The position numbers and the translations under genes are program-made. DNA of 46,789 nt from a virus. How positions within the stretch are numbered: the first letter of the stretch is position 1; each line of letters starts with the position of its first letter. Positions 1,154 to 46,789 of this stretch are shown here, piece by piece. The stretch lies in IMG/VR virus record IMGVR_UViG_3300045988_051134. One strand, written 5' to 3'. The notes below the pieces were generated by a model that was given only the letters and a program-made list of their open reading frames with translations, did not search any database and had not been told where the DNA came from.

Positions 1154-1167
1154 TTTTGCCTCCTACT

Positions 1168-1206: not shown

Positions 1207-1208
1207 AA

Positions 1209-1688: not shown

Positions 1689-1692
1689 TTGA

Positions 1693-2106
1693 TTAGTCCT
1701 TTCTTATTAAATCAATGTAAACAATAAAATTCGTTATCCAGTACATCTTACCGGCCGTGTCGACTAGTTGATTAAACGGGAACCCGGTAATTTCTGCATG
1801 GTCGCAGGTAAAGGTCCCGTTTTGAGATTTCACCGTGTCACCGCTAATTCTTGAAATTGCATTAGCAATCGGGCTCAACAGCTGGCGTGCCGTAAGATAA
1901 TCTTCCGTCGAGCAGAGAATTTCATACTGCATGCTCATAGGTTGATTGCCGTTAAAATACGGCGCGCCTGTTGGTGCGGACCCAGGGTCCTGCAAAAGGC
2001 TAACTTGCCCATTTTCGGGCATGTGCCCCAGCATGATCGAGCCGCCCGTCTCCTTGTCGAAAAAGTCCGCCAGGCGGTCGTCTAAATCGAGTTGCTTAGT
2101 ATCCAC
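1693..2106 (-). CDS. Putative tail-completion/neck protein (copy of 44684..45097)
   Basis: Exact inverted copy. Confidence 0.45.
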   Translation of the reverse strand: MDTKQLDLDDRLADFFDKETGGSIMLGHMPENGQVSLLQDPGSAPTGAPYFNGNQPMSMQYEILCSTEDYLTARQLLSPIANAISRISGDTVKSQNGTFTCDHAEITGFPFNQLVDTAGKMYWITNFIVYIDLIRKD

Positions 2107-2437
2107 CCTTTGCCTCCTTTAAGAAGGCGGCAACCGCCACCTTCTGCCAATCTGCCTTATACACCGATTTGGCTCTTAAATCCCATCTGCGGCCCGTTCC
2201 TGGCGTTGAGTAGTTCCGTACCCGGTGACCATTTACGAAGCCGTAGAACTGCGCTCTCGCGTATTTGGCGGTGTAATGGACGCCAGTATCGTTGACAAAA
2301 CTCTGAGACCTCAAAAATCCTGCCCTTTTAGGCACGTATTGTTCCATGTCTTGGTGCATCTGGTTGAGCACCTGGAGCCTTACGCTTCGGGAACTCGTAC
2401 TCTGAGCCATACGGCTAAAAACGCGTAAATCGCTCAT
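2096..2437 (-). CDS. Putative neck/minor capsid protein (copy of 44353..44694)
   Basis: Exact inverted copy. Confidence 0.45.
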   Translation of the reverse strand: MSDLRVFSRMAQSTSSRSVRLQVLNQMHQDMEQYVPKRAGFLRSQSFVNDTGVHYTAKYARAQFYGFVNGHRVRNYSTPGTGRRWDLRAKSVYKADWQKVAVAAFLKEAKGGY

Positions 2438-2793
2438 TAGATTACCTCCAGCTCATAGCAATAAAGGTCTTCGGTGCCAGGCTGATCAAAGCGATTGATG
2501 CTTGTCACCGTGTATTCTTGCCCTTTATAGGTCAGCTTGGATTCAAGGTTCTCCTTGGTCAAGTTTGGAATTGGATTAGAGCATCCGGCGTACAACAAAA
2601 TCAGCCCGTTAGCCACGATTTGGCGGTCATTGTTAGTGCCGCTATAGGTGGTTTGCATGTTTACCACGCTATTTGCGATATCGCCCTCCCAGGCTGGAAT
2701 TGTACGACCATAGCGGTCCTTTTTGGCGCTCTGGTCAGTTAGCTTCAAGTGGACGGTCGACACGGCCATTTGATAGGGAATTGGGAGTTTCAT
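2437..2793 (-). CDS. Putative head-closure/neck protein (copy of 43997..44353)
   Basis: Exact inverted copy. Confidence 0.45.
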   Translation of the reverse strand: MKLPIPYQMAVSTVHLKLTDQSAKKDRYGRTIPAWEGDIANSVVNMQTTYSGTNNDRQIVANGLILLYAGCSNPIPNLTKENLESKLTYKGQEYTVTSINRFDQPGTEDLYCYELEVI

Positions 2794-3224
2794 AAACTTG
2801 ACACCCCACTAAACAGTAGTCCATAGCGTCCAAGAAGGTCGTAGGCTGACTTAACTACTCCGGTGCCTCCTACGGTCAAATTCTGGCTTGCTGAGGGGTT
2901 TAAACTCATGCTGGTATGTCCTACCGTAAACGAGCTTAAAGCGCATTGTGCGACCTCGTAGGCGCTAGAATAGCCGCTTTCTTCCAGGAATAACATCTCC
3001 AAGGCCACCGCCTTTTTAAAAGCCATTGCCTGGCGGAACAGATAGCTATCCGGATCGGCTTGCGAATCAGCCTCCAGGTCGTGGTAAGCAAAAGCTGGGT
3101 CATAGTACGAACAAATCTGGTTAATTAGGACTGTAGCATTCGCTAACAGCTTATCGAAGTTGTCCGGTTTTTTCAGTTCAAAGCCGAATTTTTCGAAATC
3201 ACTTGTCGTCAGATACGGTTTCAT
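2790..3224 (-). CDS. Putative head-tail connector/adaptor (copy of 43566..44000)
   Basis: Exact inverted copy. Confidence 0.45.
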   Translation of the reverse strand: MKPYLTTSDFEKFGFELKKPDNFDKLLANATVLINQICSYYDPAFAYHDLEADSQADPDSYLFRQAMAFKKAVALEMLFLEESGYSSAYEVAQCALSSFTVGHTSMSLNPSASQNLTVGGTGVVKSAYDLLGRYGLLFSGVSSL

Positions 3225-3416
3225 CGCTAGTCACTTCTTCCTTCTTTTTGACGGTCCGCTTAGTCGCAGCTTCAATCAGCGGAGTGCCAACAGTTGGGTG
3301 AGTGGCTAACAGCTCTTCTGCTCTGTCATCGTCCACGTCAATTTTTTGGCCTTTGAAAAAGTATCTGTGCTCCTTTCGGCCCCAGAAATCGTGAACTACC
3401 TTGTACTTGGCCACCA

Positions 3417-3417
<1 letters not shown>
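3199..3417 (-). CDS. Hypothetical protein (copy of 43373..43591)
   Basis: Exact inverted copy. Confidence 0.5.
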
Positions 3418-4280
<863 letters not shown>

Positions 4281-4288
4281 TTACTTAC

Positions 4289-4825
4289 TTATCCTTTCAA
4301 TCTTTGTGCAATTTTTTGATGCAGGCTGACATCCTTACCGCCAGCTTCCGGGTTCCCCGTAGGAAATGCCTGAATTGGCTTGCCAGCAGGCTTGTCTTCT
4401 GCAAACAAATAGCTTTCTGATTCCTTGAGAGATTTAAGCTGATCTTCCAACCCGGTTAAATTGCCCTTGCTGTCAAAGCGAATGTCATCGTGGTTAAGTA
4501 GAGCCTTAACCGCTTTAGCATTCTTGGCGCCAAAGTCCTTAATAGTGCTGGTGACGGCAAATTCAAGTTTCTGAGCGTTCAATTGCTTTGCGGCTTTTTC
4601 ATTGTCCGACTTCAATTTCTCGATTTGCTGGGTCAGTTCTTCGACGTTGGCGTTATTTGCCTTCAAATCTTCAATTTTGCTTGACAATTCACTACTAGTC
4701 TTCTTAAGCGCATCTCTTTCAGCTTCCAGGCCTTCATACTTCTGTAAATCCTTGCCATATTGAGCCATGATGCTGTTAACCTGGTCTGAATCCAGTCCTA
4801 AATCTGTCAAAAATTTTCTTTCCAT
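4289..4825 (-). CDS. Scaffolding protein (copy of 41965..42501)
   Basis: Exact inverted copy. Confidence 0.7.
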   Translation of the reverse strand: MERKFLTDLGLDSDQVNSIMAQYGKDLQKYEGLEAERDALKKTSSELSSKIEDLKANNANVEELTQQIEKLKSDNEKAAKQLNAQKLEFAVTSTIKDFGAKNAKAVKALLNHDDIRFDSKGNLTGLEDQLKSLKESESYLFAEDKPAGKPIQAFPTGNPEAGGKDVSLHQKIAQRLKG

Positions 4826-4889
4826 TAGTGTCTCCTTTACGTTAGTTTTACGAGTGACGAACTCGATCAGGACATAACAATAAGGCCTT

Positions 4890-6017
4890 TTAACGACTTA
4901 CCCAGGTCGATTCCCGGTCATATTGCCGGGTTAAGAAATCATTTTCACTTACTATTTTTCTAATTTTGGCTTGATAGCCGCGAATTGCGCTACTGCATTT
5001 CGCTGCCAGATTCGTGTTGCCGATTCGTTCAGCCGCTTCCTTGCGCTGCTTCCACTTGCGGACCTGCCGTTCGTAGTAGCGCTGAAGCTGTTGCTTTTTG
5101 CCGTTTTCAATTGCTTCTTGCTCATCATAGTGCTTCTGTCGGTTAATTGTAACACCTTCAACATAAGGATAGAGCTGGTGCATGCAGTTAATTCCCAGGG
5201 TTCCTGCAGGCGTTCCGTATCCGTAATCGTAGATTGTCGGATACTTATGGTTAAAACGTGAATCCCCGTGATCCACCACGTTTACCACCTTCCCTTGGAT
5301 TGGAGCGCAAGCTGGTCTGGCTGCTGGGTGCGACGTCATAATCGCCAACGTTTGGCTGTAATCTTTTAATGATTGCATTCTAACGTCGTTATAAGTTCGC
5401 AAGGTGGTTGTAGTAATGACCGTTCTTGTATAGCCCTCAAGGCTCCATTTGTGGCCGCCCTTGTCAATTAAGGTGGTAGGCAGGCCAGTCTTAACCCAGT
5501 CGTCGATATTGTCAAAAATCGCTTCCTGAGGTGTTTTAAGGCCTGTTGTGACCGCCAAGGTAGATTTGTTTAGAATATCTTGGTAAACCCTCAAAGCGGT
5601 ATTCTTGCCCACGTTGGTGGACAATAGCGACTGGTTGACGTTGTTGTCTAGGCTTTCCCAAGTTTGGGCTGCATAGGAGTCTAGCACTTGCATTGTTTCA
5701 GTGCTAACTGGCTTAATTGGCTGATTTAAAAGCTTAGCCAGGTCCCGGTTGAAGGACTGGCTGACCTTTAATCCATCGCGCTTGATTACGGAATCAACCG
5801 CTTTTGCAATTGCAGGCGATTGCTTTTTAACGTAGTCAACTACCTGCTTGGTTAAAGCACCCATTTGAGCTAGTGCTTTAATCCGCCATTCAACCATTTC
5901 CTCAGCCTTAAGATCAGTCAATCGAGGTCGGACACCTTTAATCGTGTCGATTAGCATTCCGAATATTTCCTGCTGCAGAATAACATATTGGTCGGCAACC
6001 TTCTCCGCGGGGCTCAT
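4890..6017 (-). CDS. Head morphogenesis/minor capsid protein, SPP1 gp7-like (copy of 40773..41900)
   Basis: Exact inverted copy. Confidence 0.7.
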   Translation of the reverse strand: MSPAEKVADQYVILQQEIFGMLIDTIKGVRPRLTDLKAEEMVEWRIKALAQMGALTKQVVDYVKKQSPAIAKAVDSVIKRDGLKVSQSFNRDLAKLLNQPIKPVSTETMQVLDSYAAQTWESLDNNVNQSLLSTNVGKNTALRVYQDILNKSTLAVTTGLKTPQEAIFDNIDDWVKTGLPTTLIDKGGHKWSLEGYTRTVITTTTLRTYNDVRMQSLKDYSQTLAIMTSHPAARPACAPIQGKVVNVVDHGDSRFNHKYPTIYDYGYGTPAGTLGINCMHQLYPYVEGVTINRQKHYDEQEAIENGKKQQLQRYYERQVRKWKQRKEAAERIGNTNLAAKCSSAIRGYQAKIRKIVSENDFLTRQYDRESTWVSR

Positions 6018-6019
6018 GG

Positions 6020-7537
6020 TTATTCACCACCAAACTGATTAAATTCTGGTTCTGCCGTTGAATTCTCCGCATCGATTTGTGCCAACCACTTATCGGCTTC
6101 TTCTTCGTCTAATCCGTAGTTGCGCATTAAAAATTGCTTCTTTGGCATGACCTGGGCTTGAACTGCCTGCAAGTCGGCCGCGCGCTTGCTTTCCTGGTCA
6201 ACAAAAACGCCATCGTTGAAGTTGATCGTGATATCCAGGCTATCTAAATCGCCAGTCCATCTCGCTTGGCCGTCAGCATAGAAGCTGTCCACGCTTGCTA
6301 GTTCGAAGATAGCATAGACCAATGCCTTGATAGTCTTTTCTACCTGGGTAATGTAAGAGGACCGTGTTTGATAGGTCTGGGAGTTGTTAGTAACCACCTC
6401 GGTGGCCGTTTGAATGCCGCTCGGTGATGTTGTGAACGTGCCCTGTGATAACCCCGTCTGGTTTTCAAATTCCCGCAGGAAAAAGTCCATCGTTGCTTGA
6501 TAATCAGCCACCCGAATCGGGCTAGTCGCGTCATGGAAGCCCACTTCGCTAGCATCCCCGTACATAGCTTGGTAAACAGTTTCGTCTGGGTCAAACATCG
6601 GCGGATGAGTTTCACTTGCCTGCCCGCCATAACTTGATCCAGTCTTGAGCCATTCAGCCGGAACAATTAAACGCCGCTGGCCCTTCTTAACTTCTTCGAC
6701 AAACTGGTCGTGTGTTCGGTTGATTGCGTCGATTACAGTGTAAGAGTTGTCAATCAGCGACAGGCCCATTGGGCTTGTAAGGTTTTTATTGTTGCTACCT
6801 TTGTTACGATAGAAGGCGAATAAAGGGCGTTTTAAGCCGGTAATCTTGACTTGTGGCTCTAACCCTTCATACTGCTCTAAAGTGCTCAGAGGGACGTTAA
6901 TTCCGACCGTGTCGGCTGTTTCTGAGCGATAGAGCTCGTTGGTAATCACATAGTCGCCGTGGTCCCATTGGTGGAATTCAAGCAGCGTGTAGTAGATGGT
7001 TCGGTGGCCTTCAACTTGGGTTGTTTTGGATGCGATTGCCAATTCGTTGACTTTGTTAGTATCAGCTTGAAGCGGGTAAATTTGGTCAGCCGTGGCCCAG
7101 GCTAGTTTAATCTTGCCATTTTCTACATACGGACGAACACACCCAGATCCCAGTGCAATCCATTCTTCCAGCTTCTCTTCAAAAGTAGTATAGAATTCGC
7201 TATCCTGGAAAACGCCGTCCAAAAAGTCGTTGGCAGTCTCATCGCTGACGGTGACCTGGCACTGCTCGTTAAAAATTAAACTGGCAAGCTTAGCACTGGC
7301 CAGCTTGGTGACATTAACTGATTGCAGTTCATGCTTCTGCGTTTCGCCGTATGAATTCTTGTGGGTGACTTGTTTAAAGTCATCCATGTAATAACGCTTG
7401 TCCCGTGCAATCCGCTCCACCTCATCGGCGGGCATATTGATCCGGGGATTGTCAATGATCTGGCCTAAACTTTTGGTCATTCCGACTGCTGCACTTCCTT
7501 TCCGAAACAAATTTCTGAGTGTATCCCAAAAAGCCAT
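6020..7537 (-). CDS. Portal protein (copy of 39253..40770)
   Basis: Exact inverted copy. Confidence 0.8.
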   Translation of the reverse strand: MAFWDTLRNLFRKGSAAVGMTKSLGQIIDNPRINMPADEVERIARDKRYYMDDFKQVTHKNSYGETQKHELQSVNVTKLASAKLASLIFNEQCQVTVSDETANDFLDGVFQDSEFYTTFEEKLEEWIALGSGCVRPYVENGKIKLAWATADQIYPLQADTNKVNELAIASKTTQVEGHRTIYYTLLEFHQWDHGDYVITNELYRSETADTVGINVPLSTLEQYEGLEPQVKITGLKRPLFAFYRNKGSNNKNLTSPMGLSLIDNSYTVIDAINRTHDQFVEEVKKGQRRLIVPAEWLKTGSSYGGQASETHPPMFDPDETVYQAMYGDASEVGFHDATSPIRVADYQATMDFFLREFENQTGLSQGTFTTSPSGIQTATEVVTNNSQTYQTRSSYITQVEKTIKALVYAIFELASVDSFYADGQARWTGDLDSLDITINFNDGVFVDQESKRAADLQAVQAQVMPKKQFLMRNYGLDEEEADKWLAQIDAENSTAEPEFNQFGGE

Positions 7538-7547
7538 ATTCCACCTC

Positions 7548-8861
7548 CTACCACTTCAAACCGAAGTCTCTTTCGTTGTCTAGCACGCAATACTTAAAAG
7601 CATCGACCGTGTGGTCGTCTTCCTTGATAACCTTGGGACTGTCGCTTTGGAGCGTGTTTTCATCCCATTGATATTTTTGGTGTTCCTTGATAAAAATCTG
7701 ATTGGCAGGCTGGTCAAGATAATAAACTCGGCCTTGTGCCAGTAGATCCTGGACCCGGTCGATCATGTCAACTTCTTTAAGCTTGTGGACCTTGTGCCAG
7801 CGGATCCCATACATCGAGTAATACTGATTGTCAAGCGCACCTTCGGCCGAATCCATTGTCAACCGTGTTGGATACTTATCATACTTCTCTGTCACCTTGT
7901 CGATAAAGTCATGGATGTCTTTAGCCAATTCGCTAGGTGGCTTCTTGTTCGTCTTGCCTGCTGGTGAGTAGTAGTAGGTGTCCAGCAGGTAAACGTCGCC
8001 CTTGCGAGTGAGACCTACTGCAACCACCGTGGTGGCAGAGACTTCGTGTCCTGCGTCCATGCCGTAGTAGATGTCGGTGATGTAGTCACCGTCAGGGATT
8101 GCACTGGCTGAATGGAATAGATCCATGTTGTAGACATTGGTTCCTAGACCTACGACCTCGCCAAGATAAAGCCATCGATAATAATCGAAGTCGTTTTTCT
8201 TGTAAGAATCGATCATGTCCAGCTGCTGCTTGGTCGTAAAGCCCAGCTTGTCGTCCAAATAAGTGGAATGATCAATAAAGAAATTTGGATCACTTTCCTT
8301 TTGAGTTATCCACTCATTTATCCACAGATAAGGATTTTTAGGCGGGTTATAGGAGCAGTAAACCTTAGCCTGGTCTAGCCAGGATGGCTTTTGTCGGATA
8401 AAGGTCGGTATCGCTTGGTCGAACACGTCGATATTTTTTAAATTGGCAAATTCTTCTAACCACACCGCGATTATATTGCCGACATTGTTAGACTTAAGCT
8501 TTAACGGGTCATTAGCGCCGTAGAAGTAAAAAGTTGAACCAGATTGAATATGTTCAATCTTAAGTGGGCTTGCCCTGGTTCTGAACTGGTCACTAACCTT
8601 AAGGATATCCATAGCCCAGAGAATCTGGTTATAAACCGAGTCCCGCAGGTAGCTGGCGTTTTCACGGATGCAGACCACGTTTGCTTTATGTCCAGCGTTG
8701 ATAGCCTTAAGCATGTCAAAGACAAGTTTGATGCTGATCACGGAGGATTTAAAGCTACCACGCCCTCCTTTAGCGATGACGTAGGGCTTTTCAGTATTCC
8801 AGAGTTTACGGAAGTGCGGGTTGATCTGGTCTGTCAGTCTAACCTTCATCTTCATCACCAT
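7548..8861 (-). CDS. terL: Terminase large subunit (copy of 37929..39242)
   Basis: Exact inverted copy. Confidence 0.85.
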   Translation of the reverse strand: MVMKMKVRLTDQINPHFRKLWNTEKPYVIAKGGRGSFKSSVISIKLVFDMLKAINAGHKANVVCIRENASYLRDSVYNQILWAMDILKVSDQFRTRASPLKIEHIQSGSTFYFYGANDPLKLKSNNVGNIIAVWLEEFANLKNIDVFDQAIPTFIRQKPSWLDQAKVYCSYNPPKNPYLWINEWITQKESDPNFFIDHSTYLDDKLGFTTKQQLDMIDSYKKNDFDYYRWLYLGEVVGLGTNVYNMDLFHSASAIPDGDYITDIYYGMDAGHEVSATTVVAVGLTRKGDVYLLDTYYYSPAGKTNKKPPSELAKDIHDFIDKVTEKYDKYPTRLTMDSAEGALDNQYYSMYGIRWHKVHKLKEVDMIDRVQDLLAQGRVYYLDQPANQIFIKEHQKYQWDENTLQSDSPKVIKEDDHTVDAFKYCVLDNERDFGLKW

Positions 8862-9276
8862 CCGTCATGTCATCGATGATCACGGTTTGACTGGCAGCTT
8901 CCTGCGCCATGCCATTCCACATGCCATAGCGCTTGCCCAGCATGTCCATCGCTTTTAGGCGATCCGCAAAAAGCGGACGTGTCTCCACGATGTTGCCGTT
9001 TTTATCTAGGCGCTCTTCTTTGAGTTCACCACGAGCTATGGACGTCAGCTCTTCCATGATTTCCTTGATCTGCATGGTTTTCTTCTTGTCCAAAGCATCC
9101 ATTTTTTCATTGATGTACTCACGAATGTAAGACTTTGACAAGTTATCTGCACCTATTTGCCGCGCTGTTTTTTTGGAATATCCAGCAAGGATGGCAGCCT
9201 GTGTGGAGTTGCCAAGCCGAATATATTCGTCAGCAAATTTTTTCTGTTTAATCGTAAGCTTCAGCACTGTCACCAC
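8839..9276 (-). CDS. terS: Terminase small subunit (copy of 37514..37951)
   Basis: Exact inverted copy. Confidence 0.8.
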   Translation of the reverse strand: MVTVLKLTIKQKKFADEYIRLGNSTQAAILAGYSKKTARQIGADNLSKSYIREYINEKMDALDKKKTMQIKEIMEELTSIARGELKEERLDKNGNIVETRPLFADRLKAMDMLGKRYGMWNGMAQEAASQTVIIDDMTDGDEDEG

Positions 9277-9298
9277 CTTTCTTACTTCTTACTGAAAC

Positions 9299-9324
9299 AA
9301 AAAAGCACGGCCACCAGGCCATGC
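9299..9324 (-). terminator. Intrinsic terminator just upstream of terS (copy of 37466..37491)
   Basis: Mirror of an 8-bp GC-rich stem, 4-nt loop and T6 run. Confidence 0.7.
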
Positions 9325-9420
9325 TTAACGTGTCTGTCTATTGCCCGCTCGGATACCTGATAGTAATATCGTCATCGCTTGGTTGAGTTTCTGCGGGTAA
9401 CTAGAAACTCAAGAGGGCTA

Positions 9421-9766
9421 TGAATCCCAGTGGAATCGAACCAGTGACATTCGCTTAAAAAATATTTGGAGGAAACAATAATTAAATAAAGAGTTATTGC
9501 TAACGTTTTTTTCTATGCCCCAAAAGGGGCTAAAGCTGGTGCAGGAATCGAACCTGCCGTGCCAAAGCATTTATGACAGCAATGAGTTGAGTTGTAATTA
9601 GGTATTGGTCAGACTACTAAAGGAGATAGGCACTACCCAACCAGCTAATGTGTATAATGTATGAATTATGAAAAACGGAAGTAATTAGAGGAATAATTTA
9701 GGGAAAAGTGCCCGGTCGCTTAACCACCGGGCAATGCTGCAGGTGGGAGTCGAACCCACCCGCAGC
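9421..9766 (-). other. Cluster of three tRNA-like acceptor/T-arm elements plus a terminator hairpin (copy of 37024..37369)
   Basis: Exact inverted copy; see the right-arm entries. Confidence 0.5.
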
Positions 9767-9819
9767 TATGACTAAACTTTCGGTATAAAGCTGACAAACA
9801 TTTATTTTTGTTTACGTTA

Positions 9820-10308
9820 TTATAATATCTCTTTTGCCGTGCACGTTGCGTGCATACTTTGTGCATTTTTTGGCACTTGCAAACAAGGCTGATCTTGTAC
9901 CTTAAACACCAGCTTCCAGTACTCAAAACGGTCCGCAAATTCGCAAAGTGCAAGTCGCTTCTTATTCGCGAATTGCCGATCTGAGTAGCCAATTTTTTGA
10001 GCGATCTTAAACCCTTGCATGCCCTTGAGGTAGTAGTCCACCAGGATGATTTTGTAGGGTTTGCGAATGTCCCCGTCGGCGCAGTTGGCAATTGTATGCT
10101 TGATGCAGTCGACCACAGAAGCCGCATATAAGCCCTCTACAAGCTTTTCTTCTTGGTGATTGGTAAATGAACCGGAGGGCATTCCAGACATGCTAGGTGA
10201 ACTTATATCAGCCCTGTGTGCACCACACTGGCGTAGATATCGCTCAAAGTCGTGCTTAAGGTACTGATCTACCCTGCGAGCGGTCAATCTTTGATCCAAG
10301 TTGTCCAT
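9820..10308 (-). CDS. ArpU-family phage late transcriptional regulator (copy of 36482..36970)
   Basis: Exact inverted copy. Confidence 0.7.
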   Translation of the reverse strand: MDNLDQRLTARRVDQYLKHDFERYLRQCGAHRADISSPSMSGMPSGSFTNHQEEKLVEGLYAASVVDCIKHTIANCADGDIRKPYKIILVDYYLKGMQGFKIAQKIGYSDRQFANKKRLALCEFADRFEYWKLVFKVQDQPCLQVPKNAQSMHATCTAKEIL

Positions 10309-10312
10309 AGAA

Positions 10313-10468
10313 TTACTCCTTCATCAAGTCGCGAATAACTAACTCAAGGCGTCGCAATTCGGTGTAATCCATTGATTGCAAGAATTCTCTGCTGACCATC
10401 AAATCAAACCCTGGCTTGGCCACGTGATAGCCCTGGCCAGTCTTTTTAACTTCAAAACCGTAACTCAT
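10313..10468 (-). CDS. Hypothetical 51-aa protein (copy of 36322..36477)
   Basis: Exact inverted copy. Confidence 0.4.
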   Translation of the reverse strand: MSYGFEVKKTGQGYHVAKPGFDLMVSREFLQSMDYTELRRLELVIRDLMKE

Positions 10469-10626
10469 AATCTTTCGTCCTCCCCTACTACTTTCTCTAA
10501 TAGCTCTGTATCACTCATGATGTAGTCTGTTGCACATTCCATGCAGCAGAATCCTAGGCCTTGATATTCCAGATAGCTGTCCCCTTTTTCCAGAACAGTG
10601 CCGCACCAATTACAATGGAAGTTCAT
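10465..10626 (-). CDS. Hypothetical 53-aa CxxC...CxxC protein (copy of 36164..36325)
   Basis: Exact inverted copy. Confidence 0.45.
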   Translation of the reverse strand: MNFHCNWCGTVLEKGDSYLEYQGLGFCCMECATDYIMSDTELLEKVVGEDERL

Positions 10627-10849
10627 AATTATACCCCGCTTGTCTTAATCCTGTGATCCAGCACCAGGGAATGAGCTTCCGCCGTCCCCGCTTGCTGACA
10701 GTGATTTCTAATCCATCAACTTTGCGCTCAATGCCATACACTGCTCTTGGCTGGGCATCAACCCAGCGCGCAATTGGCTCTGGCGTGTTTACTGCCAGTT
10801 TGAAGCGCGATTGTAAGCCGTATTTCGTCGGATAAAATTCCTTTTCCAT
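10610..10849 (-). CDS. Hypothetical protein (copy of 35941..36180)
   Basis: Exact inverted copy. Confidence 0.55.
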   Translation of the reverse strand: MEKEFYPTKYGLQSRFKLAVNTPEPIARWVDAQPRAVYGIERKVDGLEITVSKRGRRKLIPWCWITGLRQAGYNYELPL

Positions 10850-10860
10850 TTTTTTAAACC

Positions 10861-11004
10861 TTACCTTGCTAAATAAACACTTGTGAAGCTGGTTGCCATC
10901 AAGGCCGCCCAGGCCGCGAAGTTAAGCCAGTTTGGCTTAAGCATCAACCAAATCGTGACCAGGATCCAAACTCCCCAACTCAAACTAATCGTAAGACTTT
11001 GCAT
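10861..11004 (-). CDS. Hypothetical 47-aa membrane protein (copy of 35786..35929)
   Basis: Exact inverted copy. Confidence 0.4.
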   Translation of the reverse strand: MQSLTISLSWGVWILVTIWLMLKPNWLNFAAWAALMATSFTSVYLAR

Positions 11005-11254
11005 TGTTGTCCCTCATAAATTTTTCCAGTTCCTGGTGCTCTTGGTCCGTAAAAGGATCATCCTTAGAGTCGTAATCCAGGAAACATGGTCCATCACCCA
11101 GCCGCATAATACGTGCCACGCGCTCCGTCCGGTCGCTGTCGTAAAAGAAAAGCTCGCCGTCATAGTCAAACCAAATGCTAATCTTCGGGTTGCCGTTTAC
11201 TTGCCACCAGTCAAAGAGGCGGTATAACGTTTGTCCATTAAAAGCCATAACCAA
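10985..11254 (-). CDS. Hypothetical protein (copy of 35536..35805)
   Basis: Exact inverted copy. Confidence 0.55.
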   Translation of the reverse strand: MVMAFNGQTLYRLFDWWQVNGNPKISIWFDYDGELFFYDSDRTERVARIMRLGDGPCFLDYDSKDDPFTDQEHQELEKFMRDNNAKSYD

Positions 11255-11570
11255 TCAGCTCCTCTCTAATAATCTTCACTGCATCTTCGGGCGACCTAGC
11301 AATGCCATGGATGATACCGCAGTTGGTAAGCATCTCGTGGAATCGTTTTTGACTTTCCCTTGGTCGCCCCATTTTAGTTTTCATCTCGATAAAAAAGACC
11401 TGGTGGTCGTCAGTCTTGAAGCCAAATAAGTCGAAGAACCCATTCGGCAGGCCTTGGATAACGTGCTTCCCGTCCAGGCTGAGGAATTTCCCTGCGTTGG
11501 CCCGGAACACCTTGCAGCCGGCTTTGGTCAAAGCCACCATGGTTAGTTTTTGAATGTCCGATTCTCGCAT
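11238..11570 (-). CDS. VRR-NUC domain nuclease (copy of 35220..35552)
   Basis: Exact inverted copy. Confidence 0.65.
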   Translation of the reverse strand: MRESDIQKLTMVALTKAGCKVFRANAGKFLSLDGKHVIQGLPNGFFDLFGFKTDDHQVFFIEMKTKMGRPRESQKRFHEMLTNCGIIHGIARSPEDAVKIIREELIGYGF

Positions 11571-11574
11571 TATT

Positions 11575-11793
11575 CTACTGCGCCTCCATCATCTCAATAA
11601 TCATCCTTTTGACCTTGTCATAGTCGGCATAGCTGTAATTAACCGAATTCATTAACATCACGCTAATGGCAATTAGAACAGCTTTAGGCGGTTTCCGATA
11701 AACGTGGGCATAATTGGCCACTAACTCCTTGCAAGCCTCTCTGCGGCCTTCTATAGCGTTTTTGGCGTATGCTTCAGCGAATAGGTAGGTCAT
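11575..11793 (-). CDS. Hypothetical protein (copy of 34997..35215)
   Basis: Exact inverted copy. Confidence 0.55.
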   Translation of the reverse strand: MTYLFAEAYAKNAIEGRREACKELVANYAHVYRKPPKAVLIAISVMLMNSVNYSYADYDKVKRMIIEMMEAQ

Positions 11794-11839
11794 ACGCCCA
11801 CCACCCGCTTGTTTGGCTTTCTCTTGTGTTTAGTCATCG

Positions 11840-12064
11840 TTAATCCCTCCAGTTTAAAATTTCTGAGTCCGCAGTATAGCGAACGATTTTTAGTGGCAGG
11901 TCACCACCGCTTTTTTTAAGTCGTCTCATTTGAGCCCTGGCCATAGCCTGGCTGACATAGATCATTGGATGACTGCCTGCTCTACACACCTGCAGCCGTC
12001 CATTAACTTCTTCCATCACTGCCCAGACCACCGGCTCCTCGATGTTTTCGATCCATTTTGTCAT
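11840..12064 (-). CDS. Hypothetical protein (copy of 34726..34950)
   Basis: Exact inverted copy. Confidence 0.55.
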   Translation of the reverse strand: MTKWIENIEEPVVWAVMEEVNGRLQVCRAGSHPMIYVSQAMARAQMRRLKKSGGDLPLKIVRYTADSEILNWRD

Positions 12065-12382
12065 TGTTTTTTTCTCCTAGTGTAGTCATTGTAGTCACCC
12101 TGTAGTCAGCCTCAGCCTTACTCTCCCAAGGGTTTTGGCGAGGTGACTACATGACTACACCTTTCCCAACTTTTTATAAATACCCCCCCATCCCACCTGA
12201 CCACACCCCCTATTATAAAAAGTTTATTTTTTATAATAGGCGTAGTCATGTAGTCAATACACTATAATCCTTACTCTCCCAAGGGCTGAGGCTGACTACA
12301 AGGTGACTACATCTGACTACACCGTCGCGCTGAGCCCTACTCTCCCAAGGGTTCAGATTTTCATTTTTGACTACACCTATCT
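12065..12382. repeat. Heptamer/stem-loop/palindrome block R2 (mirror copy of 34408..34725), here directly upstream of the TMP gene
   Basis: Exact reverse complement of 34408..34725. It includes the AT-rich palindrome at 12209..12240 and a C-rich tract. Its inner end carries the reverse complement of the last 6 nt (aga tag) of the VirE-like gene. Confidence 0.9.
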
Positions 12383-32315: not shown

Positions 32316-33101
32316 ATGGAAAACCTTGTAAACTACGCGAAAAGCTATGCAGCACATGGCTTTAGCGTAATCCCGATCGTAAATAAACGGCCGCTGGTCA
32401 AGTTTGCTAACAGACCGGCTTTAACCAAAGAGGAGATTGATGCCATTTGGACCAAGCATCCAACGGCATCGATTGCCTTGCAGACACGTGAGTTCTTGGT
32501 GATTGATGTCGACCGCCATGAAGGTGGCGACGGCATGGAGTCGATCAAAGCCCTGGGCCATAACGAGTGGTTCAAGGACACGCTTTGCGAGCAAACTCAC
32601 TCCGGCGGCTTTCACTTTTATTTCCGGAAACCAGCCAAGCAGACTATCACACAAAACATCGGCTTTTTGCCACATGTTGACCTAAAAGCCCACGATAATA
32701 ACTATGTGGTAGTGGCACCGTCACCAGGATACAAGTGGCTCAACCACAAGCCGATCCAGCCTTTGCCAGATGGTTTGCTGGAACTAATTTTAAAAAAGCA
32801 AGCCGAATCCAAGCCATCGGCCGGAGTGGAAGCAGGGTACAAAGTCGATTCCAAGACAGCGACCGCAGCCCTTTTTGAGCAAATTGTCGACGGATTGGGC
32901 GCTACAGGCGGCAGAAATAACGCTCTGGCGTCGTTTGTCGGTGGTCTGCTATATCGGGGCGTAGATCCTTATAAAGCCGCTCAGCTAGCTCTTTTGGCCA
33001 ATGAAAACACGCAAGACAAACTAACCATCGCTGAAGTAGAGAAGACAGTCAATTCAATGATTGAGAAGGAATTACGAAGAAGGGCGGGCGCAGATGAGTG
33101 A
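32316..33101 (+). CDS. Bifunctional DNA primase/polymerase (Prim-Pol) N-terminal domain protein
   Basis: 261 aa. GFSVIPI, LVIDVDRH and SGGFHFYF motifs. Confidence 0.75.
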   Translation: MENLVNYAKSYAAHGFSVIPIVNKRPLVKFANRPALTKEEIDAIWTKHPTASIALQTREFLVIDVDRHEGGDGMESIKALGHNEWFKDTLCEQTHSGGFHFYFRKPAKQTITQNIGFLPHVDLKAHDNNYVVVAPSPGYKWLNHKPIQPLPDGLLELILKKQAESKPSAGVEAGYKVDSKTATAALFEQIVDGLGATGGRNNALASFVGGLLYRGVDPYKAAQLALLANENTQDKLTIAEVEKTVNSMIEKELRRRAGADE

Positions 33102-34413
33102 TAAATTTCACGTCGTGACGGACAAGGCGGACGAACTTAAAAAGGCCCAGTCGAAAAAGAAACTAAATTTCATCTTGAATTCTCAAGACCAGGTCAAGTC
33201 GACCAGTTTGGCCAACGTTGCGTTGATCCTCCGGACTGATCCACATCTGGCAGGTGTGTTCAAATGGAATGCCTTCACCGAGGCAATTGACGCCACCAAG
33301 GACGTCAAAATCGACCTATCCAAGTGGAACATGCCAAATATCCATATCAAAAAGGGGCCGATCAACGACCACGTGGTCGACGACATTGCCTTATACTGCG
33401 ATATCTATCCCGACTATCGGGTGGCTTTTAAATCGCCGCTTATCTTTCAGGCGCTGGGGACGGTAGCCCGGGACCAGGCTTATAACCCGGTCACTGACTA
33501 CCTCAAAGCTTGCTACAAAAAGTGGGATAAGAAGGCCCGCATAACCGACTTTCTGCCGGACTACCTGGGAGCTGACCGTACCCCTGCCAACAATTTGATC
33601 ATTAAGTTAGTATTGATGGGTGTGGTGGCTAAAGCCGCCAATCCCAACACTAAATTTGACTGGGTCTTGGACCTGGTCGGTGGTCAAGGCGTCGGCAAAA
33701 CCACCCTGCTGATGAAGCTGGCACCGCCTGGGACATATACAGACCAGTTCTTAAGCTTTACGGACAAGGACGACTTTGCAGCTATGCGAAATGCGTTGAT
33801 TGTCAACGACGACGAAATGACAGTTTCAAACCGGACTTCTTTTGAAGAAATCAAGAAGTTCATCACCATGAAAGAGTTCACTTACCGTCCACCATATGCC
33901 CGGTCAAATGAAACTTTCAAAAAGAAATTTGTTCTGTTCCGGACGACGAACGAGGTCCGACACCTTAAGGATAAATCCGGTGACCGTCGATTCTTGTCGA
34001 TCATGTGCCACCGGGAACAGCAGAAGCTGCATCCCGTGACCGACCTGGACAAGTCATACATCGATCAGATCTGGGGGGAAGCAGTATACCTCTATAAGAC
34101 AACCACCGAGCCGTTTAAGTTGACCCCAGAACAGAACGAATTACTAGATGAAAGCCGTCAGCAATTCATGTACACCACCGCGCTCGAAGATAACTTGCGC
34201 GACGCGCTGGCTAATGATTTTGCAGATCGCACTTTCATCTCAAATAATGAGCTTTGGCAGGACCTGCAGGTCATCGGCGGCGGTACTGCACTTACGGAAC
34301 GACAAAAAGAAAAGGTTCGTTACTACATGGAACACATGGGTTGGAACGTAGGTGCGGTTCGAAAGGTCAAATCGGGGAATTCACGCAAGTCTTTACGTGG
34401 ATTTTCCAGATAG
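33094..34413 (+). CDS. VirE-family P-loop primase-associated helicase
   Basis: Track ORF starts at 33061; ATG 33094 is more likely. Walker A GGQGVGKT and Walker B-like LIVNDDE. The last 6 nt fall inside the inverted repeat. Confidence 0.75.
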   Translation: MSDKFHVVTDKADELKKAQSKKKLNFILNSQDQVKSTSLANVALILRTDPHLAGVFKWNAFTEAIDATKDVKIDLSKWNMPNIHIKKGPINDHVVDDIALYCDIYPDYRVAFKSPLIFQALGTVARDQAYNPVTDYLKACYKKWDKKARITDFLPDYLGADRTPANNLIIKLVLMGVVAKAANPNTKFDWVLDLVGGQGVGKTTLLMKLAPPGTYTDQFLSFTDKDDFAAMRNALIVNDDEMTVSNRTSFEEIKKFITMKEFTYRPPYARSNETFKKKFVLFRTTNEVRHLKDKSGDRRFLSIMCHREQQKLHPVTDLDKSYIDQIWGEAVYLYKTTTEPFKLTPEQNELLDESRQQFMYTTALEDNLRDALANDFADRTFISNNELWQDLQVIGGGTALTERQKEKVRYYMEHMGWNVGAVRKVKSGNSRKSLRGFSR

Positions 34414-34532
34414 GTGTAGTCAAAAATGAAAATCTGAACCCTTGGGAGAGTAGGGCTCAGCGCGACGGTGTAGTCAGATGTAGTCACCTTGTAGTCAGCC
34501 TCAGCCCTTGGGAGAGTAAGGATTATAGTGTA

Positions 34533-34560
34533 TTGACTACATGACTACGCCTATTATAAA
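34533..34560 (+). promoter_or_regulatory. Candidate sigma-A promoter inside R2
   Basis: TTGACT (34533-38), 16-nt spacer, TATAAA (34555-60), pointing toward the 74-aa ORF. Overlaps the heptamers and the palindrome. Confidence 0.3.
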
Positions 34561-34581
34561 AAATAAACTTTTTATAATAGG
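34550..34581. repeat. Perfect AT-rich palindrome (13-bp arms, 6-nt spacer)
   Basis: cctattataaaaa-ataaac-tttttataatagg. Followed by G-rich ggggtgtggtcaggtgggatggggggg (to 34607). Confidence 0.9.
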
Positions 34582-34725
34582 GGGTGTGGTCAGGTGGGAT
34601 GGGGGGGTATTTATAAAAAGTTGGGAAAGGTGTAGTCATGTAGTCACCTCGCCAAAACCCTTGGGAGAGTAAGGCTGAGGCTGACTACAGGGTGACTACA
34701 ATGACTACACTAGGAGAAAAAAACA

Positions 34726-46083: not shown

Positions 46084-46660
46084 GGAAGACCACAAATTCA
46101 TCGAGTTAACCACCGGGGTGTATGAACTGGACTATTCTTACGATAACGTCCTGCGGTGGTTTAACTTGGTCGAATCTGATCTTCCCGAAGAAATCAAGGC
46201 CACACGAACATTCTTAATGTTCGTTGGTCCGGTGGATGCCACCGATGACGACATAGTTAAAACCTTCCAGACGGTATCCGAGGACGTAAGCAAACATCCC
46301 TACGGGAACACGGTTGATAGCGATCCAGTTGGCAAGTGGGACCGGGCATTTGACTTTGAACTCGATTCTGGCGCAATCTACGCCAGTTTTATGCAGACGT
46401 ACCACATCGACTTGCTGGAAGAGAAAGGCAAAATGAGCTGGTTTAAGTTTAAGGCTTTGCTTGACGGTCTGGATCCCGAATCGATTTTTGAAAGAATTGT
46501 TCGAATCCGCAAGGCCGATTTGAGCGAATACAAGGGCAAACAGCTTAATGAAATGGTTGACTGCAAAGAATACTACAGTCTGGCCCAAACTCCGGAAGAC
46601 CAACAGGCCAAAAACGACTACGAGATGCAAAAACAATTCGACCAGATGGGTTTGGTGTAG
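46034..46660 (+). CDS. Tail assembly chaperone, T-like ORF (Gp15-like)
   Basis: This frame is open from 46031 and overlaps the G ORF by about 50 nt in the +1 frame. An internal ATG at 46058 has only a weak RBS. YELDYSYDNVLRWFNLVESDLPEE resembles phage Gp15-type TAC proteins. Confidence 0.6.
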   Translation: MQRSARTAMLSLSTPSKEDHKFIELTTGVYELDYSYDNVLRWFNLVESDLPEEIKATRTFLMFVGPVDATDDDIVKTFQTVSEDVSKHPYGNTVDSDPVGKWDRAFDFELDSGAIYASFMQTYHIDLLEEKGKMSWFKFKALLDGLDPESIFERIVRIRKADLSEYKGKQLNEMVDCKEYYSLAQTPEDQQAKNDYEMQKQFDQMGLV

Positions 46661-46789
46661 TCATTTTCAAAAAAATGAGCCTTACTCTCCCAAGGGCTCA
46701 GCGATTTGGTGTAGTCATTTGTAGTCACCTTGTAGTCAGCCTCAGCCTTACTCTCCCAAGGGCTGAGGCCTAATTGACTACATGACTAC
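46657..46789. repeat. Repeat block R1: second, partial copy of the R2 heptamer/stem-loop module, after the tail chaperone gene
   Basis: GTAGTCA at 46657, 46711, 46721, 46732. TGACTAC at 46775, 46783. Hairpins at 46676-46700 and 46739-46769. Roughly 85% alignable to 34413-34548, but with both 13-nt loops inverted. Confidence 0.9.

What the first reader, a model, noticed from the sequence alone, without database searches (positions are those of the whole stretch)
34408..34725. Iteron-like GTAGTCA/TGACTAC arrays directly after the primase/VirE gene: candidate origin of replication
Seen in sequence:
- There are 11 copies of one heptamer in 318 bp: 6 GTAGTCA and 5 TGACTAC. Most extend to TGTAGTCA.
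- Chance expectation is about 6 for the whole 46.8-kb window on both strands.
- Copies within each array are spaced 8-11 bp apart, so successive sites fall on roughly the same helix face.
- The arrays flank stem-loops, a perfect AT-rich palindrome and a G-rich tract. No ORF is present.

Established knowledge:
- Phage and plasmid origins commonly combine iterons with an AT-rich unwinding element.
- In several LAB phages the ori lies in the non-coding stretch next to the primase/helicase genes.

Inference: this is the ori, or another protein-loading site such as pac or a late-regulator site. The binding protein is unknown. Nearby candidates are the Prim-Pol/VirE pair, the small HTH proteins and ArpU.
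Basis: partly seen in the sequence, partly recalled or inferred. Interest (0 to 1): 0.65.

Follow-up and report, generated by a model that had tools for sequence, protein, structure and literature searches.

The report
Iteron replication origin beside Rep helicase
The repeat cluster is very probably the replication origin of a Lactobacillus delbrueckii phage, read by the helicase gene just upstream of it as in staphylococcal pathogenicity islands; this is an ordinary kind of element, but this phage group keeps a second copy inside its tail-gene operon, and the two copies made the contig mis-assemble as a 12-kb fold-back.

Summary
There are 11 GTAGTCA/TGACTAC heptamers in 34408-34725 (42 in the window, 3.5 expected). 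They form direct and inverted blocks around a 20%-GC palindrome, and no gene is called there.

The interpretation (ori) is supported, and the binding protein can now be named. The upstream 'VirE' gene is a homologue of SaPI1 Rep1, an initiator-helicase whose iteron ori lies immediately 3' of its gene (7pds: sequence E 1e-30; fold TM 0.69). A Prim-Pol gene precedes it. Distant homologues in eight other phages are each followed by the same layout with their own repeat. Within the LL-H group, the heptamer flavour (TCA, AAA, TAA) covaries with the wing of Rep's C-terminal winged helix. It does not covary with ArpU or TerS.

- The array occurs four times in the window.
- 34408 is the inner edge of a perfect 12,382-nt inverted repeat. 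This is an assembly fold-back through a natural 69-nt inverted repeat; independent contigs give a ~34.7-kb genome.
- A paralogous second array (T) lies between the tail chaperone and tape-measure genes. It is the element annotated as 'putative ori' in phage LL-H. It is present in all Rep-bearing relatives and persists as an orphan in some Rep-less ones.

Verdict: new member of a known kind, of moderate interest.

The parts
32316..33101 (+). Prim-Pol primase gene (the 'pri' of the cassette); its end overlaps the start of Rep
   Evidence: Pfam Prim-Pol PF09250 (6e-28) plus PriCT_1; PHROG DNA polymerase/primase
33061..34413 (+). Rep: VapE/VirE-type SF3 initiator-helicase with a C-terminal winged helix. 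The likely true start is the ATG at 33094 (439 aa).
   Evidence: PF05272 1.4e-63. PDB 7pds (SaPI1 Rep1-DNA) by sequence E 1e-30 and by fold E 1e-28, TM 0.69, full length. Public gene calls give 439 aa.
34408..34725 (.). Array J: the candidate origin (the finding). It holds 11 heptamers in four blocks of opposite polarity around an AT-rich centre.
   Evidence: homologous arrays after Rep in relatives
34408..34476 (.). Outer module of J (heptamer 34416 plus hairpin 34435-34459). It is an exact inverted copy of the TMP-proximal end of array T.
   Evidence: The 69-nt segment equals the reverse complement of 12314-12382. An independent contig (L133) matches the window only up to this segment.
34470..34548 (.). 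Left half of J: three direct heptamers (34470, 34480, 34491), hairpin motif GCCTCAG-CCCTTGGGAGAGTAAGG (34498-34521), and two inverted heptamers (34534, 34542)
   Evidence: The CCTT-N8-9-AAGG motif is 30x denser in arrays than outside.
34550..34581 (.). AT-rich perfect palindrome (13-bp arms, 6-nt loop): the presumed DNA-unwinding element
   Evidence: GC 20%
34580..34630 (+). G-rich tract (34580-34608) and conserved motif TATTTATAAAAAGTTGGGAAAGG (34608-34630). These give the element its polarity.
   Evidence: GC skew +0.7 to +0.9. The motif is conserved in J and T arrays of relatives and, as AAAGTTGAAAA, in LfeSau, LFP01 and L060.
34632..34708 (.). Right half of J: two direct heptamers (34632, 34640), hairpin motif CCCTTGGGAGAGTAAGG-CTGAGGC (34658-34681), and three inverted heptamers (34682, 34693, 34702)
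46653..46789 (.). Array T, left half (cut by the window end). It lies directly after the tail-chaperone ORF, whose TAG stop lies inside the first heptamer. It holds 6 heptamers and two hairpins whose loops are inverted relative to J.
   Evidence: It continues in independent contig L135. It is homologous to the LL-H 'rep_origin putative' at 11170-11440.
12314..12382 (.). Array T, natural TMP-proximal end (outer module). It is followed by the RBS and the tape-measure ATG at 12397.
   Evidence: Identical in L133 and L134, which are independent assemblies with an identical TMP
1..12313 (.). Fold-back duplicate (reverse complement of 34477-46789). This is an assembly artefact or inversion isomer, not part of the natural genome order. 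It includes the reverse complement of J at 12082-12382 and of T-left at 1-137.
   Evidence: Perfect 12,382-nt inverted repeat. L133 diverges from the window at 12313 although 13,549 nt downstream are identical. The natural contig is 34,733 bp.

Best explanation
Array 34408-34725 (J) is the cognate replication origin of a Pri-Rep-ori cassette of the SaPI1 type, carried by an LL-H/phiJB-like Lactobacillus delbrueckii siphovirus.

Proposed mechanism:
- Rep is a VapE/VirE-type SF3 helicase encoded at 33094-34413. It binds the (T)GTAGTCA heptamers through its C-terminal winged helix. The conserved helix (RYYMEH) probably reads the shared TGTAG core, and the beta-hairpin wing reads the last three bases.
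- The blocks on the two sides of the centre have opposite polarity, so two Rep hexamers load facing each other.
- They melt the 20%-GC palindrome at 34550-34581 and act as the replicative helicases.
- The Prim-Pol encoded just upstream primes synthesis.

The same phage has a second, paralogous array (T) between the tail-chaperone and tape-measure genes, with the same heptamer. It is most likely a second Rep-loading site: a second origin or a cis-acting partner.

Basis of each step:
- Shown: anatomy, homology, gene-array linkage and covariation.
- Inferred: binding, melting and origin firing.

The 12.4-kb inverted repeat of the window is not biology. The assembler folded back through a natural 69-nt inverted repeat shared by the outer modules of J and T.
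For: 1. Rep homology. Pfam VapE-like 1.4e-63. The only PDB sequence hit is SaPI1 Rep1-DNA, 7pds, E 1e-30. The AF2 model (pLDDT 86) ends in an alpha-beta-alpha-alpha-beta-beta winged helix, and its best fold match is 7pds over the full length (E 1e-28, TM 0.69).

2. The documented SaPI replicon criteria are all met here (PMC9371898). Those criteria are: pri upstream; ori immediately 3' of rep; 6-12 short iterons; an AT-rich centre; and at least 2 iterons on each side in opposite directions. Supporting calls: 1, 2, 63, 77, 78.

3. Linkage. In S193, LFP01, LfeSau, PLE2, TMW1.706-P1, bIL312, PH15 and phiOE33PA (35-50% identical Rep), Prim-Pol and Rep are followed by a 120-356-bp gap. The gap has the same layout but a different 6-9-mer in each phage. 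It is the only Rep-linked array in the three of these genomes read in full: PLE2, LfeSau and PH15. About 25 of 117 IMG/VR loci retrieved only by the 15-mer GTAGTCATGTAGTCA encode a Rep homologue, with the array starting 5-20 nt after its stop.

4. Covariation.
- TCA arrays go with Rep ...VRKVKSGNSRKSLRGFSR (window, L139, phiJB, L147-L150).
- AAA arrays go with ...VGKVKKAGKWQSTRGFGR (L142, and the prediction was confirmed in L153).
- TAA arrays go with ...VRKIKTGNNYKSTRGFRKL (L158/L159).
- 18 of 26 AAA-specific substitutions lie in Rep residues 378-443.
- Supporting calls: 73, 83, 92, 100, 106.

5. Array T. It is present in 6/6 Rep-bearing genomes and has the same flavour as J in 5/6. J and T are distinct scaffolds, yet each exists in both flavours.

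6. No promoter-like or terminator-like site lies inside J, no Rfam family matches, and there is no DnaA box.

7. Fold-back.
Against: - No experiment was possible. Binding, melting and origin activity are all inferred.
- The covariation rests on few independent switches (three flavours), and the genomes are related.
- phiJB has a TCA-type Rep but an AAA-type T array.
- LL-H, L140, L145 and L146 keep 7-10 perfect heptamers in T although they have a different replication module (ERF/Phg_2220_C/DnaC-like) and no Rep in the sequence read. So T is not strictly tied to a resident Rep.
- One Rep lineage (P0127, 59% identity) has no gap after Rep.
- P0124 has a heterogeneous array.
- GTAGTCA arrays in high-GC contigs abut a tail-fibre-like gene, not a helicase.
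Confidence: 0.75

Rival explanations
1. The arrays are packaging (pac) or terminase-loading sites. TerS oligomers bind the heptamers and DNA wraps around them.
For: - Arrays of short repeats at about a helical-turn spacing suit a ring-shaped TerS.
- In one group of high-GC IMG/VR contigs, similar arrays lie 1-3 kb upstream of a terminase-like ORF and a P22-type portal.
- Several assemblies break inside T, and one contig has an adapter fused to the centre of T.
- TerS shows a cluster of AAA-specific changes at residues 24-76.
Against: - J lies 2.8 kb upstream of terS and T 7.4 kb downstream of terL.
- TerS alleles occur in all four combinations with heptamer flavour: TCA/A in window and L140; TCA/B in LL-H; AAA/A in phiJB; AAA/B in L142.
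- The array follows Rep, not the packaging genes, in phages with unrelated packaging modules such as PLE2, LfeSau and PH15.
- Assembly breaks are expected at an AT-rich palindrome.
Confidence: 0.04
2. The arrays are transcription-control regions, for example a late or tail-operon promoter or an anti-termination site. They would be bound by the ArpU-like activator or a small HTH protein.
For: - J lies at the boundary between the replication genes and the block that leads to the late genes.
- T lies inside the tail operon.
- TTGACT (T plus TGACTAC) resembles a -35 hexamer.
- An ArpU-like activator is encoded 1.8 kb downstream.
Against: - No sigma-70-like promoter or intrinsic terminator was found inside J.
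- ArpU has only 3 scattered flavour-specific substitutions and is 85-88% identical in TCA and AAA phages alike.
- LL-H lacks this ArpU homologue yet has the array.
- Relatives L143 and L144 have no T gap, so the tail operon needs no such site.
Confidence: 0.06
3. The arrays are sites of a DNA inversion or recombination system, or a MITE-like mobile element. On this reading the 12.4-kb inverted repeat reflects real flip-flop isomers.
For: - The element is a quasi-palindrome with GGTGTAGTCA...TGACTACACC ends.
- Hairpin loops (GGGAGAGT versus ACTCTCCC) are inverted between copies.
- Two independent assemblies contain inverted-type junctions: the window, and L137.
- T is present in some relatives and absent in others.
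Against: - An independent contig with 13.5 kb of identical sequence has the natural T-TMP junction and a 34.7-kb length.
- Both odd junctions lie exactly in shared repeats (69 nt and 31 nt), as graph mis-joins do. Three assemblies stop in T's centre, so a short dead-end branch there could be lost in graph clean-up (my inference).
- Other genomes share only 18-31 nt between J and T.
- A 46.8-kb molecule would exceed a capsid that holds ~35-37 kb (inference).
- J always sits in the same place after Rep. I saw no evident target-site duplication when reading the flanks, but I did not test this systematically.
- Inverted loops are expected when a palindromic hairpin is copied in either orientation.
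Confidence: 0.05
4. J is the origin, but T is not a working origin of its own phage. It would be a decoy or hitch-hiking site acting in trans on the Rep of other phages or prophages, or simply a decaying relic of an old duplication of J.
For: - Orphan T arrays occur in Rep-less LL-H, L140, L145 and L146, and a non-cognate T occurs in phiJB.
- T is dispensable in L143 and L144.
- LL-H's T has lost the left three-heptamer block.
- Cloned phage origins are known to interfere with phage replication (the PER phenotype; my own knowledge).
Against: - T is present in every Rep-bearing genome and matches Rep flavour in 5/6.
- Orphan arrays still have 9-10 perfect heptamers. That argues against free decay, but also fits recent recombination.
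- There is no direct test.
Confidence: 0.2

Closest known systems
SaPI pri-rep-ori replicons of Staphylococcus aureus pathogenicity islands (Ubeda et al. 2007, 2012; Qiao et al. 2022, PMC9371898)
   Same: - Primase gene, then initiator-helicase gene, then ori immediately 3' of it.
- 6-12 short iterons on both sides of an AT-rich centre with opposite polarity.
- Rep reads the iterons with a C-terminal winged helix and loads itself.
- The window's Rep is a sequence and fold homologue of SaPI1 Rep1 (7pds).
   Different: - The host element is a complete siphovirus, not a satellite island.
- The iterons are 7-8 bp rather than 5-6 bp.
- Conserved CCTTG..GTAAGG hairpins sit between the iteron blocks.
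- A second array lies 12 kb away.
'Putative origin of replication' of Lactobacillus phage LL-H (GenBank EF455602, rep_origin 11170..11440)
   Same: It is homologous, position by position, to the window's array T. The location is the same (tail chaperone to tape measure), the heptamer is the same (GTAGTCA), and the scaffold is the same.
   Different: - The finding itself (J) is the paralogous array after Rep.
- LL-H has no J and no Rep.
- LL-H's array has lost one block.
- I know of no functional test of the LL-H element, and none was found in the library.
Phage P4 ori/crr and Bacillus phage SPP1 oriL/oriR (my own knowledge, not checked here)
   Same: Two clusters of the same initiator-binding repeats lie kilobases apart in one small genome. 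In P4 they are bound by the C-terminal domain of a primase-helicase. In SPP1 one site lies in the late region.
   Different: - Different initiator families and repeat layouts.
- Whether both J and T are needed or fire is unknown.
Origins of Streptococcus thermophilus Sfi21-type and other dairy phages that give the PER phenotype (my own knowledge)
   Same: A non-coding repeat-rich stretch lies next to the primase/helicase gene of a dairy siphovirus. VirE-type helicase homologues are abundant in Streptococcus phages.
   Different: I did not examine those origins. No open paper in the library allowed a direct comparison.
SV40 and papillomavirus origins with SF3 initiator-helicases (my own knowledge)
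   Same: Short repeats in inverted pairs around or next to an AT-rich element direct head-to-head loading of two SF3 hexamers.
   Different: These are eukaryotic viruses with a different origin-binding domain. The likeness is analogy only.

Membership tests
SaPI1-type Pri-Rep-ori replicon | Rep is an SF3/VapE-type initiator-helicase homologous to SaPI Rep | tested here: met
   PF05272 1.4e-63; 7pds by sequence E 1e-30; by fold E 1e-28, TM 0.69/0.67
SaPI1-type Pri-Rep-ori replicon | C-terminal winged-helix domain on Rep | tested here: met
   The AF2 model (pLDDT 86) has H363-375, b381-383, H384-394, H402-414, b418-427 and b430-438. The full-length alignment to 7pds spans 463 columns. This is a prediction, not a solved structure.
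SaPI1-type Pri-Rep-ori replicon | Primase gene directly upstream of rep | tested here: met
   Prim-Pol plus PriCT_1 at 32316-33101, overlapping the start of Rep
SaPI1-type Pri-Rep-ori replicon | ori immediately downstream of the rep ORF, non-coding | tested here: met
   Stop codon at 34411-34413 and first heptamer at 34416. No gene is called in this gap in relatives.
SaPI1-type Pri-Rep-ori replicon | 6-12 short iterons | tested here: met
   11 copies. The unit is 7-8 bp instead of the 5-6 bp described for SaPIs.
SaPI1-type Pri-Rep-ori replicon | Central AT-rich region with at least 2 iterons on each side pointing in opposite directions | tested here: met
   34534(-) and 34542(-), then the centre at 34550-34581 (GC 20% at 34540-34579), then 34632(+) and 34640(+)
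SaPI1-type Pri-Rep-ori replicon | Rep binds its own iterons specifically and melts the ori | not testable with these tools
   Only comparative support: three heptamer flavours track three Rep C-terminal wings
SaPI1-type Pri-Rep-ori replicon | The cassette supports replication of DNA carrying the ori | not testable with these tools
   Needs cloning, marker-frequency analysis or 2D gels
SaPI / phage-inducible chromosomal island (the element, not the replicon) | A satellite without its own capsid and tail genes that depends on a helper phage | tested here: not met
   The genome encodes terminase, portal, capsid, tail, tape measure and lysin. So it works like a SaPI replicon, but the element is a phage.
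LL-H 'putative ori' element (array T lineage) | Lies between the Gp15-type tail chaperone and the tape-measure gene, with the T-type scaffold (left hairpin loop ACTCTCCC, right loop GCGGCnGT) | tested here: not met
   J lies after Rep and has GGGAGAGT loops on both sides. The window's other array (46653-46789 plus 12314-12382) does meet this criterion.
DnaA-dependent iteron-plasmid origin (Rep_3/RepA type) | DnaA box(es) next to 17-22-bp direct iterons | tested here: not met
   No DnaA box with up to 1 mismatch in or next to J or T. The repeats are 7-8 bp and lie in both orientations.
pac / TerS recognition site | Sequence specificity follows the TerS DNA-binding domain, and the site lies in or next to terS | tested here: not met
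   The TerS allele is independent of heptamer flavour. J is 2.8 kb from terS.
Bipartite origin of the P4 ori/crr kind | Two distant clusters of the same iteron, both required in cis | tested here: inconclusive
   Two clusters with the same heptamer are about 12 kb apart, in 5/6 Rep-bearing genomes. The requirement in cis cannot be tested, and orphan or absent T arrays exist.

The most novel reading that the evidence does not exclude
The second array (T), lodged inside the tail operon, is not just a spare origin. On this reading it is a trans-acting 'origin in disguise' that travels with the structural module.

In Rep-less phages such as LL-H it would let the phage be replicated by the Rep of a co-infecting or resident LL-H-like phage, or would titrate that Rep away. 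That would be a natural form of origin piracy, or a natural PER-type interference.

The concerted switching of all heptamers between the TCA, AAA and TAA flavours would then record an arms race between Rep specificities.
Probability: 0.15. Interest if true: 0.65.

Novelty: new member of a known kind. Interest (0 to 1): 0.4.

Why it matters
- It names, from sequence alone, the probable origin and its initiator for the LL-H/phiJB group of dairy Lactobacillus delbrueckii phages. The only record so far is an untested 'putative ori' annotation at the other array.
- It gives ready-made reagents for phage-resistance (PER-type) constructs in yoghurt and cheese starters.
- It offers a natural specificity-swap series: three heptamer flavours and three Rep wings on an otherwise ~90% identical protein. 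This can be used to study how self-loading SF3 helicases read their origins.
- It flags a practical trap. Paired quasi-palindromic origins make assemblers produce fold-back contigs. Here a 34.7-kb phage appears as a 46.8-kb contig with a 12.4-kb 'inverted terminal repeat', which could be mistaken for a genome feature.

Tried and rejected
1. Site-specific inversion or lox/FRT-like sites. I first read the inverted 8-nt hairpin loops and the giant inverted repeat this way. I rejected it after the independent contig L133 showed the natural junction and the break fell exactly at a shared 69-nt repeat.

2. MITE-like element. I rejected it because of the fixed position after Rep and the Rep-wing covariation.

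3. Exact-junction scans of IMG/VR for the window's odd junction and for the continuation of T found nothing.

4. A genome-contig scan with the portal found no relative.

5. All-against-all clustering of ORFs near the 52 IMG/VR arrays, followed by Pfam, gave no common neighbour. Spurious ORFs in high-GC contigs blurred the result. Targeted Pfam of the abutting ORFs gave a tail-fibre-like protein, not a helicase.

6. Literature:
- Nothing usable on the LL-H ori in the held library.
- A search for the motif GTAGTCA returned only primer noise.
- The Ubeda 2007 paper is not held.
- No open text on S. thermophilus phage origins was found.

7. TerS as the flavour reader looked possible because of clustered substitutions. 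The allele table excluded it.

8. The promoter/terminator scan and Rfam gave nothing inside J.
Full report
**1. The observation.**
The region 34408-34725 holds 11 copies of GTAGTCA/TGACTAC. Six are on + (34416, 34470, 34480, 34491, 34632, 34640) and five on - (34534, 34542, 34682, 34693, 34702). The expectation for the entire window is 3.5 +/- 1.9. Ten of the copies extend to TGTAGTCA. Spacing within blocks is 8-11 bp.

The centre is a perfect 13-bp-arm AT palindrome (34550-34562/34569-34581). GC there falls to 20%, and a G-skewed tract follows. As single-stranded DNA the element folds into one long quasi-palindrome (z = -10.9). The left direct block pairs with the right inverted block, so the element has overall dyad symmetry. 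Only mechanical ORFs overlap it, and public gene calls leave the homologous gap empty.

**2.
The heptamer occurs 42 times, in four clusters. Window positions 1-12382 are the exact reverse complement of 34408-46789. The finding's start coordinate is the inner edge of this repeat.

Gene content shows an LL-H/phiJB-like Lactobacillus delbrueckii siphovirus. The unique part (12383-34407) begins with the tape-measure gene and ends with Prim-Pol and a VirE-type helicase. The right arm runs from the array through small ORFs, an ArpU-like activator, terS, terL, portal, capsid and tail tube to the tail chaperones. It ends in a second, related array (T) that the window end cuts. In natural gene order, T lies between the tail chaperone and the tape-measure gene.

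**3. The inverted repeat is a fold-back.**
An independent MEGAHIT contig of 34,733 bp (L133) carries the identical tape-measure gene plus 13,549 identical bases downstream. Upstream it matches the window for only 83 nt (window 12314-12396). Beyond that it shows a natural, LL-H-like right half of T, whereas the window shows the reverse complement of J.

The shared 69 nt (12314-12382) are the exact reverse complement of 34408-34476. This is a natural inverted repeat between the outer modules of T and J. Another contig (L135) continues T past the window end. A Logan contig (L137) shows a second odd junction, through a shared 31-nt hairpin segment. Three assemblies stop in T's AT-rich centre.

My inference is that the short branch from T's centre to the 69-nt repeat was lost during graph clean-up. 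The only remaining path into the tape-measure gene was then the reverse strand of J. Other genomes of the group share only 18-31 nt between J and T, which explains why this particular contig folded back. Real inversion isomers cannot be excluded without reads, but nothing requires them.

**4. What J is.**
The gene that ends 2 nt before the first heptamer is a VapE/VirE-domain protein (PF05272, 1.4e-63). Its only relative in the PDB by sequence is 7pds (E 1e-30). That entry is SaPI1 Rep1 bound to DNA.

An AlphaFold model (pLDDT 86) ends in a winged-helix fold. Its best structural match is 7pds over the full length (E 1e-28, TM 0.69). Other D5/SF3 primase-helicases follow. A Prim-Pol/PriCT_1 gene lies directly upstream.

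The SaPI replicon is documented as follows (PMC9371898):
- pri, then rep, then the ori immediately downstream of rep;
- six to twelve short iterons;
- a central AT-rich region;
- at least two iterons on each side pointing in opposite directions;
- a C-terminal winged helix on Rep that reads the iterons;
- two hexamers that load themselves.

Every sequence-level criterion is met here.

**5. Comparative evidence for the Rep-array link.**
Eight phages have Rep homologues of 35-50% identity. Their hosts are L. helveticus, L. fermentum (two phages), L. casei, L. curvatus, Lactococcus, S. gordonii and Oenococcus. All have Prim-Pol, then Rep, then a 120-356-bp gap with the same layout. Each has its own repeat: TAACAGT, GGTGACAC, GTGTAACA, TGTAGACAC, TACACTAA, AATGCCCC, CGGTAGCAC or TGTCAC. 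In the three genomes read in full (PLE2, LfeSau, PH15), this is the only Rep-linked array.

A blind scan of IMG/VR for the 15-mer GTAGTCATGTAGTCA returned 117 loci. About 25 of them encode a Rep homologue (26-42% identity), with the array starting 5-20 nt after its stop codon.

**6. Covariation inside the LL-H group.**
- TCA arrays go with Rep ending ...VRKVKSGNSRKSLRGFSR (window, L139, phiJB, L147-L150).
- L142 has GTAGAAA in both arrays and Rep ending ...VGKVKKAGKWQSTRGFGR.
- The prediction that other Reps with this ending are followed by GTAGAAA was confirmed in L153.
- A third ending (...VRKIKTGNNYKSTRGFRKL) goes with TGTAGTAA.
- Supporting calls: 72-74, 92, 100, 102, 106.

Of 26 positions where the AAA-type Rep differs from three agreeing TCA-type Reps, 18 lie in residues 378-443. 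In the model, the contiguous patch lies in the beta-hairpin wing, while the helix RYYMEH is conserved.

Controls: ArpU has 3 scattered changes. TerS has a cluster, but its two alleles occur in all four combinations with flavour, so TerS is excluded. No promoter-like site, terminator-like site, Rfam family or DnaA box is found in J.

**7. The second array, T.**
T is homologous to the element annotated 'rep_origin, putative' in LL-H. J and T are separate scaffold lineages. J has the GGGAGAGT loop on both sides. T has ACTCTCCC on the left and GCGGCnGT on the right. Each lineage exists in both the TCA and AAA flavours, which argues that the same specificity reads both.

T is present in all six Rep-bearing genomes and matches J/Rep in five. 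phiJB is the exception: TCA-type Rep, a degenerate TCA-type J, and an AAA-type T.

Relatives with an ERF/Phg_2220_C/DnaC-like replication module fall into two groups. LL-H, L140, L145 and L146 carry an orphan TCA-type T. L143 and L144 have no gap at all. T is absent from PLE2, LfeSau and PH15.

So T travels with the tail module, is dispensable, and is best read as a second Rep-loading site. Whether it fires, assists J, or acts in trans is open.

**8. Other features.**
The hairpin motif CCTT-N8-9-AAGG (mostly CCTTG..GTAAGG) is 30 times denser in arrays than outside. It is kept in phages whose iterons differ. Its role is unknown. It could be a priming signal or a conserved contact, but that is speculation.

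**9. Verdict.**
It is a new member of a known kind (the SaPI1-type Pri-Rep-ori replicon, here in a phage). A related element has been annotated in LL-H.

The modestly new points are these:
- the two-array organisation;
- the orphan arrays;
- the flavour series with its covarying Rep wing;
- the demonstration that the contig's 12.4-kb 'terminal inverted repeat' is an assembly fold-back.

Confidence that J is a Rep-dependent origin is about 0.75. Confidence that T is a Rep-binding site is about 0.55.

Noticed in passing
window 1-12382 and 34408-46789: A perfect 12,382-nt inverted repeat makes a ~34.7-kb phage genome look like a 46.8-kb contig with giant inverted ends. It is joined through a natural 69-nt inverted repeat (12314-12382 / 34408-34476).
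   Followed up: yes
L133 1-70 (ENA ERZ27272194 k141_7707, contig end): The contig end carries ~57 nt of Illumina P5/TruSeq adapter, preceded by poly-T. It is fused to ATAGATATAGGG... in the centre of array T. This could be a recurrent fragment end at the AT-rich centre or just untrimmed reads. Three assemblies break in this centre.
   Followed up: no
L114 3063-3291; L087 67-292; L061 7716-7884; L059 5630-5846; L066 3910-4178 (IMG/VR contigs, 65-68% GC): Dense GTAGTCA arrays with the same block layout, plus long-range stems (GCAGGTCAGAGGCCC...GGGCCTCTGACCTG). They start within ~10 nt of the end of a large tail-fibre-like ORF (Laminin_G_3) and lie 1-3 kb upstream of a terminase-like ORF and a P22-type portal. 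No Rep homologue is in view, and many lie at contig ends. Their function is unexplained.
   Followed up: partly
window 34505-34521, 34658-34674, 46680-46696, 46746-46762; also L123, L124, L126, L037: The hairpin motif CCTTG-N5-7-(G)TAAGG is conserved between iteron blocks in phages of different genera whose iterons differ. It is 30x enriched in arrays. Its loop orientation differs between the J and T lineages.
   Followed up: partly
window 37514-37951 (terS), residues 24-76: Two sharply different alleles of the N-terminal (presumed DNA-binding) part of TerS circulate in the LL-H group. Allele A is in window, L139, phiJB and L140. Allele B is in LL-H and L142. They recombine independently of the replication module and of heptamer flavour, which hints at two pac specificities.
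   Followed up: partly
window 46658-46660: The TAG stop codon of the tail-chaperone ORF (46034-46660) is provided by the first heptamer of array T (G-TAG-TCA). In relatives without T (L143, L144), the chaperone and tape-measure genes are 25 nt apart.
   Followed up: partly
L004 (phiJB) 16594-16846 versus 28671-29119: phiJB combines a TCA-type Rep, a partly degenerate TCA array after Rep (5 perfect heptamers, several mutated) and a pristine 12-copy AAA array before the tape-measure gene. This looks like a recent recombinant between the two specificity groups.
   Followed up: partly
L156/L157 4311-4739; L154/L155 4330-4621: These are exceptions to the rule. The Rep lineage P0127 (59% identity) is followed at once by an overlapping ORF and has no array. 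P0124 (83% identity, a different C-terminus) is followed by a heterogeneous array mixing TGTAGTC, TACTACA, GTTACA and TTCTACA.
   Followed up: no
window 12383-34407: No homologue of the phiJB integrase/repressor pair was found in the window phage by tblastn. A BRO-like 278-aa ORF (27837-28673) and a 450-aa ORF of unknown function (22830-24182) are present. The phage may be a virulent derivative, like LL-H.
   Followed up: no
L145 7783-8849: The terL of one prophage is interrupted by an HNH/NUMOD4 ORF. The LL-H terL is annotated as joined from two pieces. This fits the group I intron known in the LL-H terminase gene (my own knowledge).
   Followed up: no
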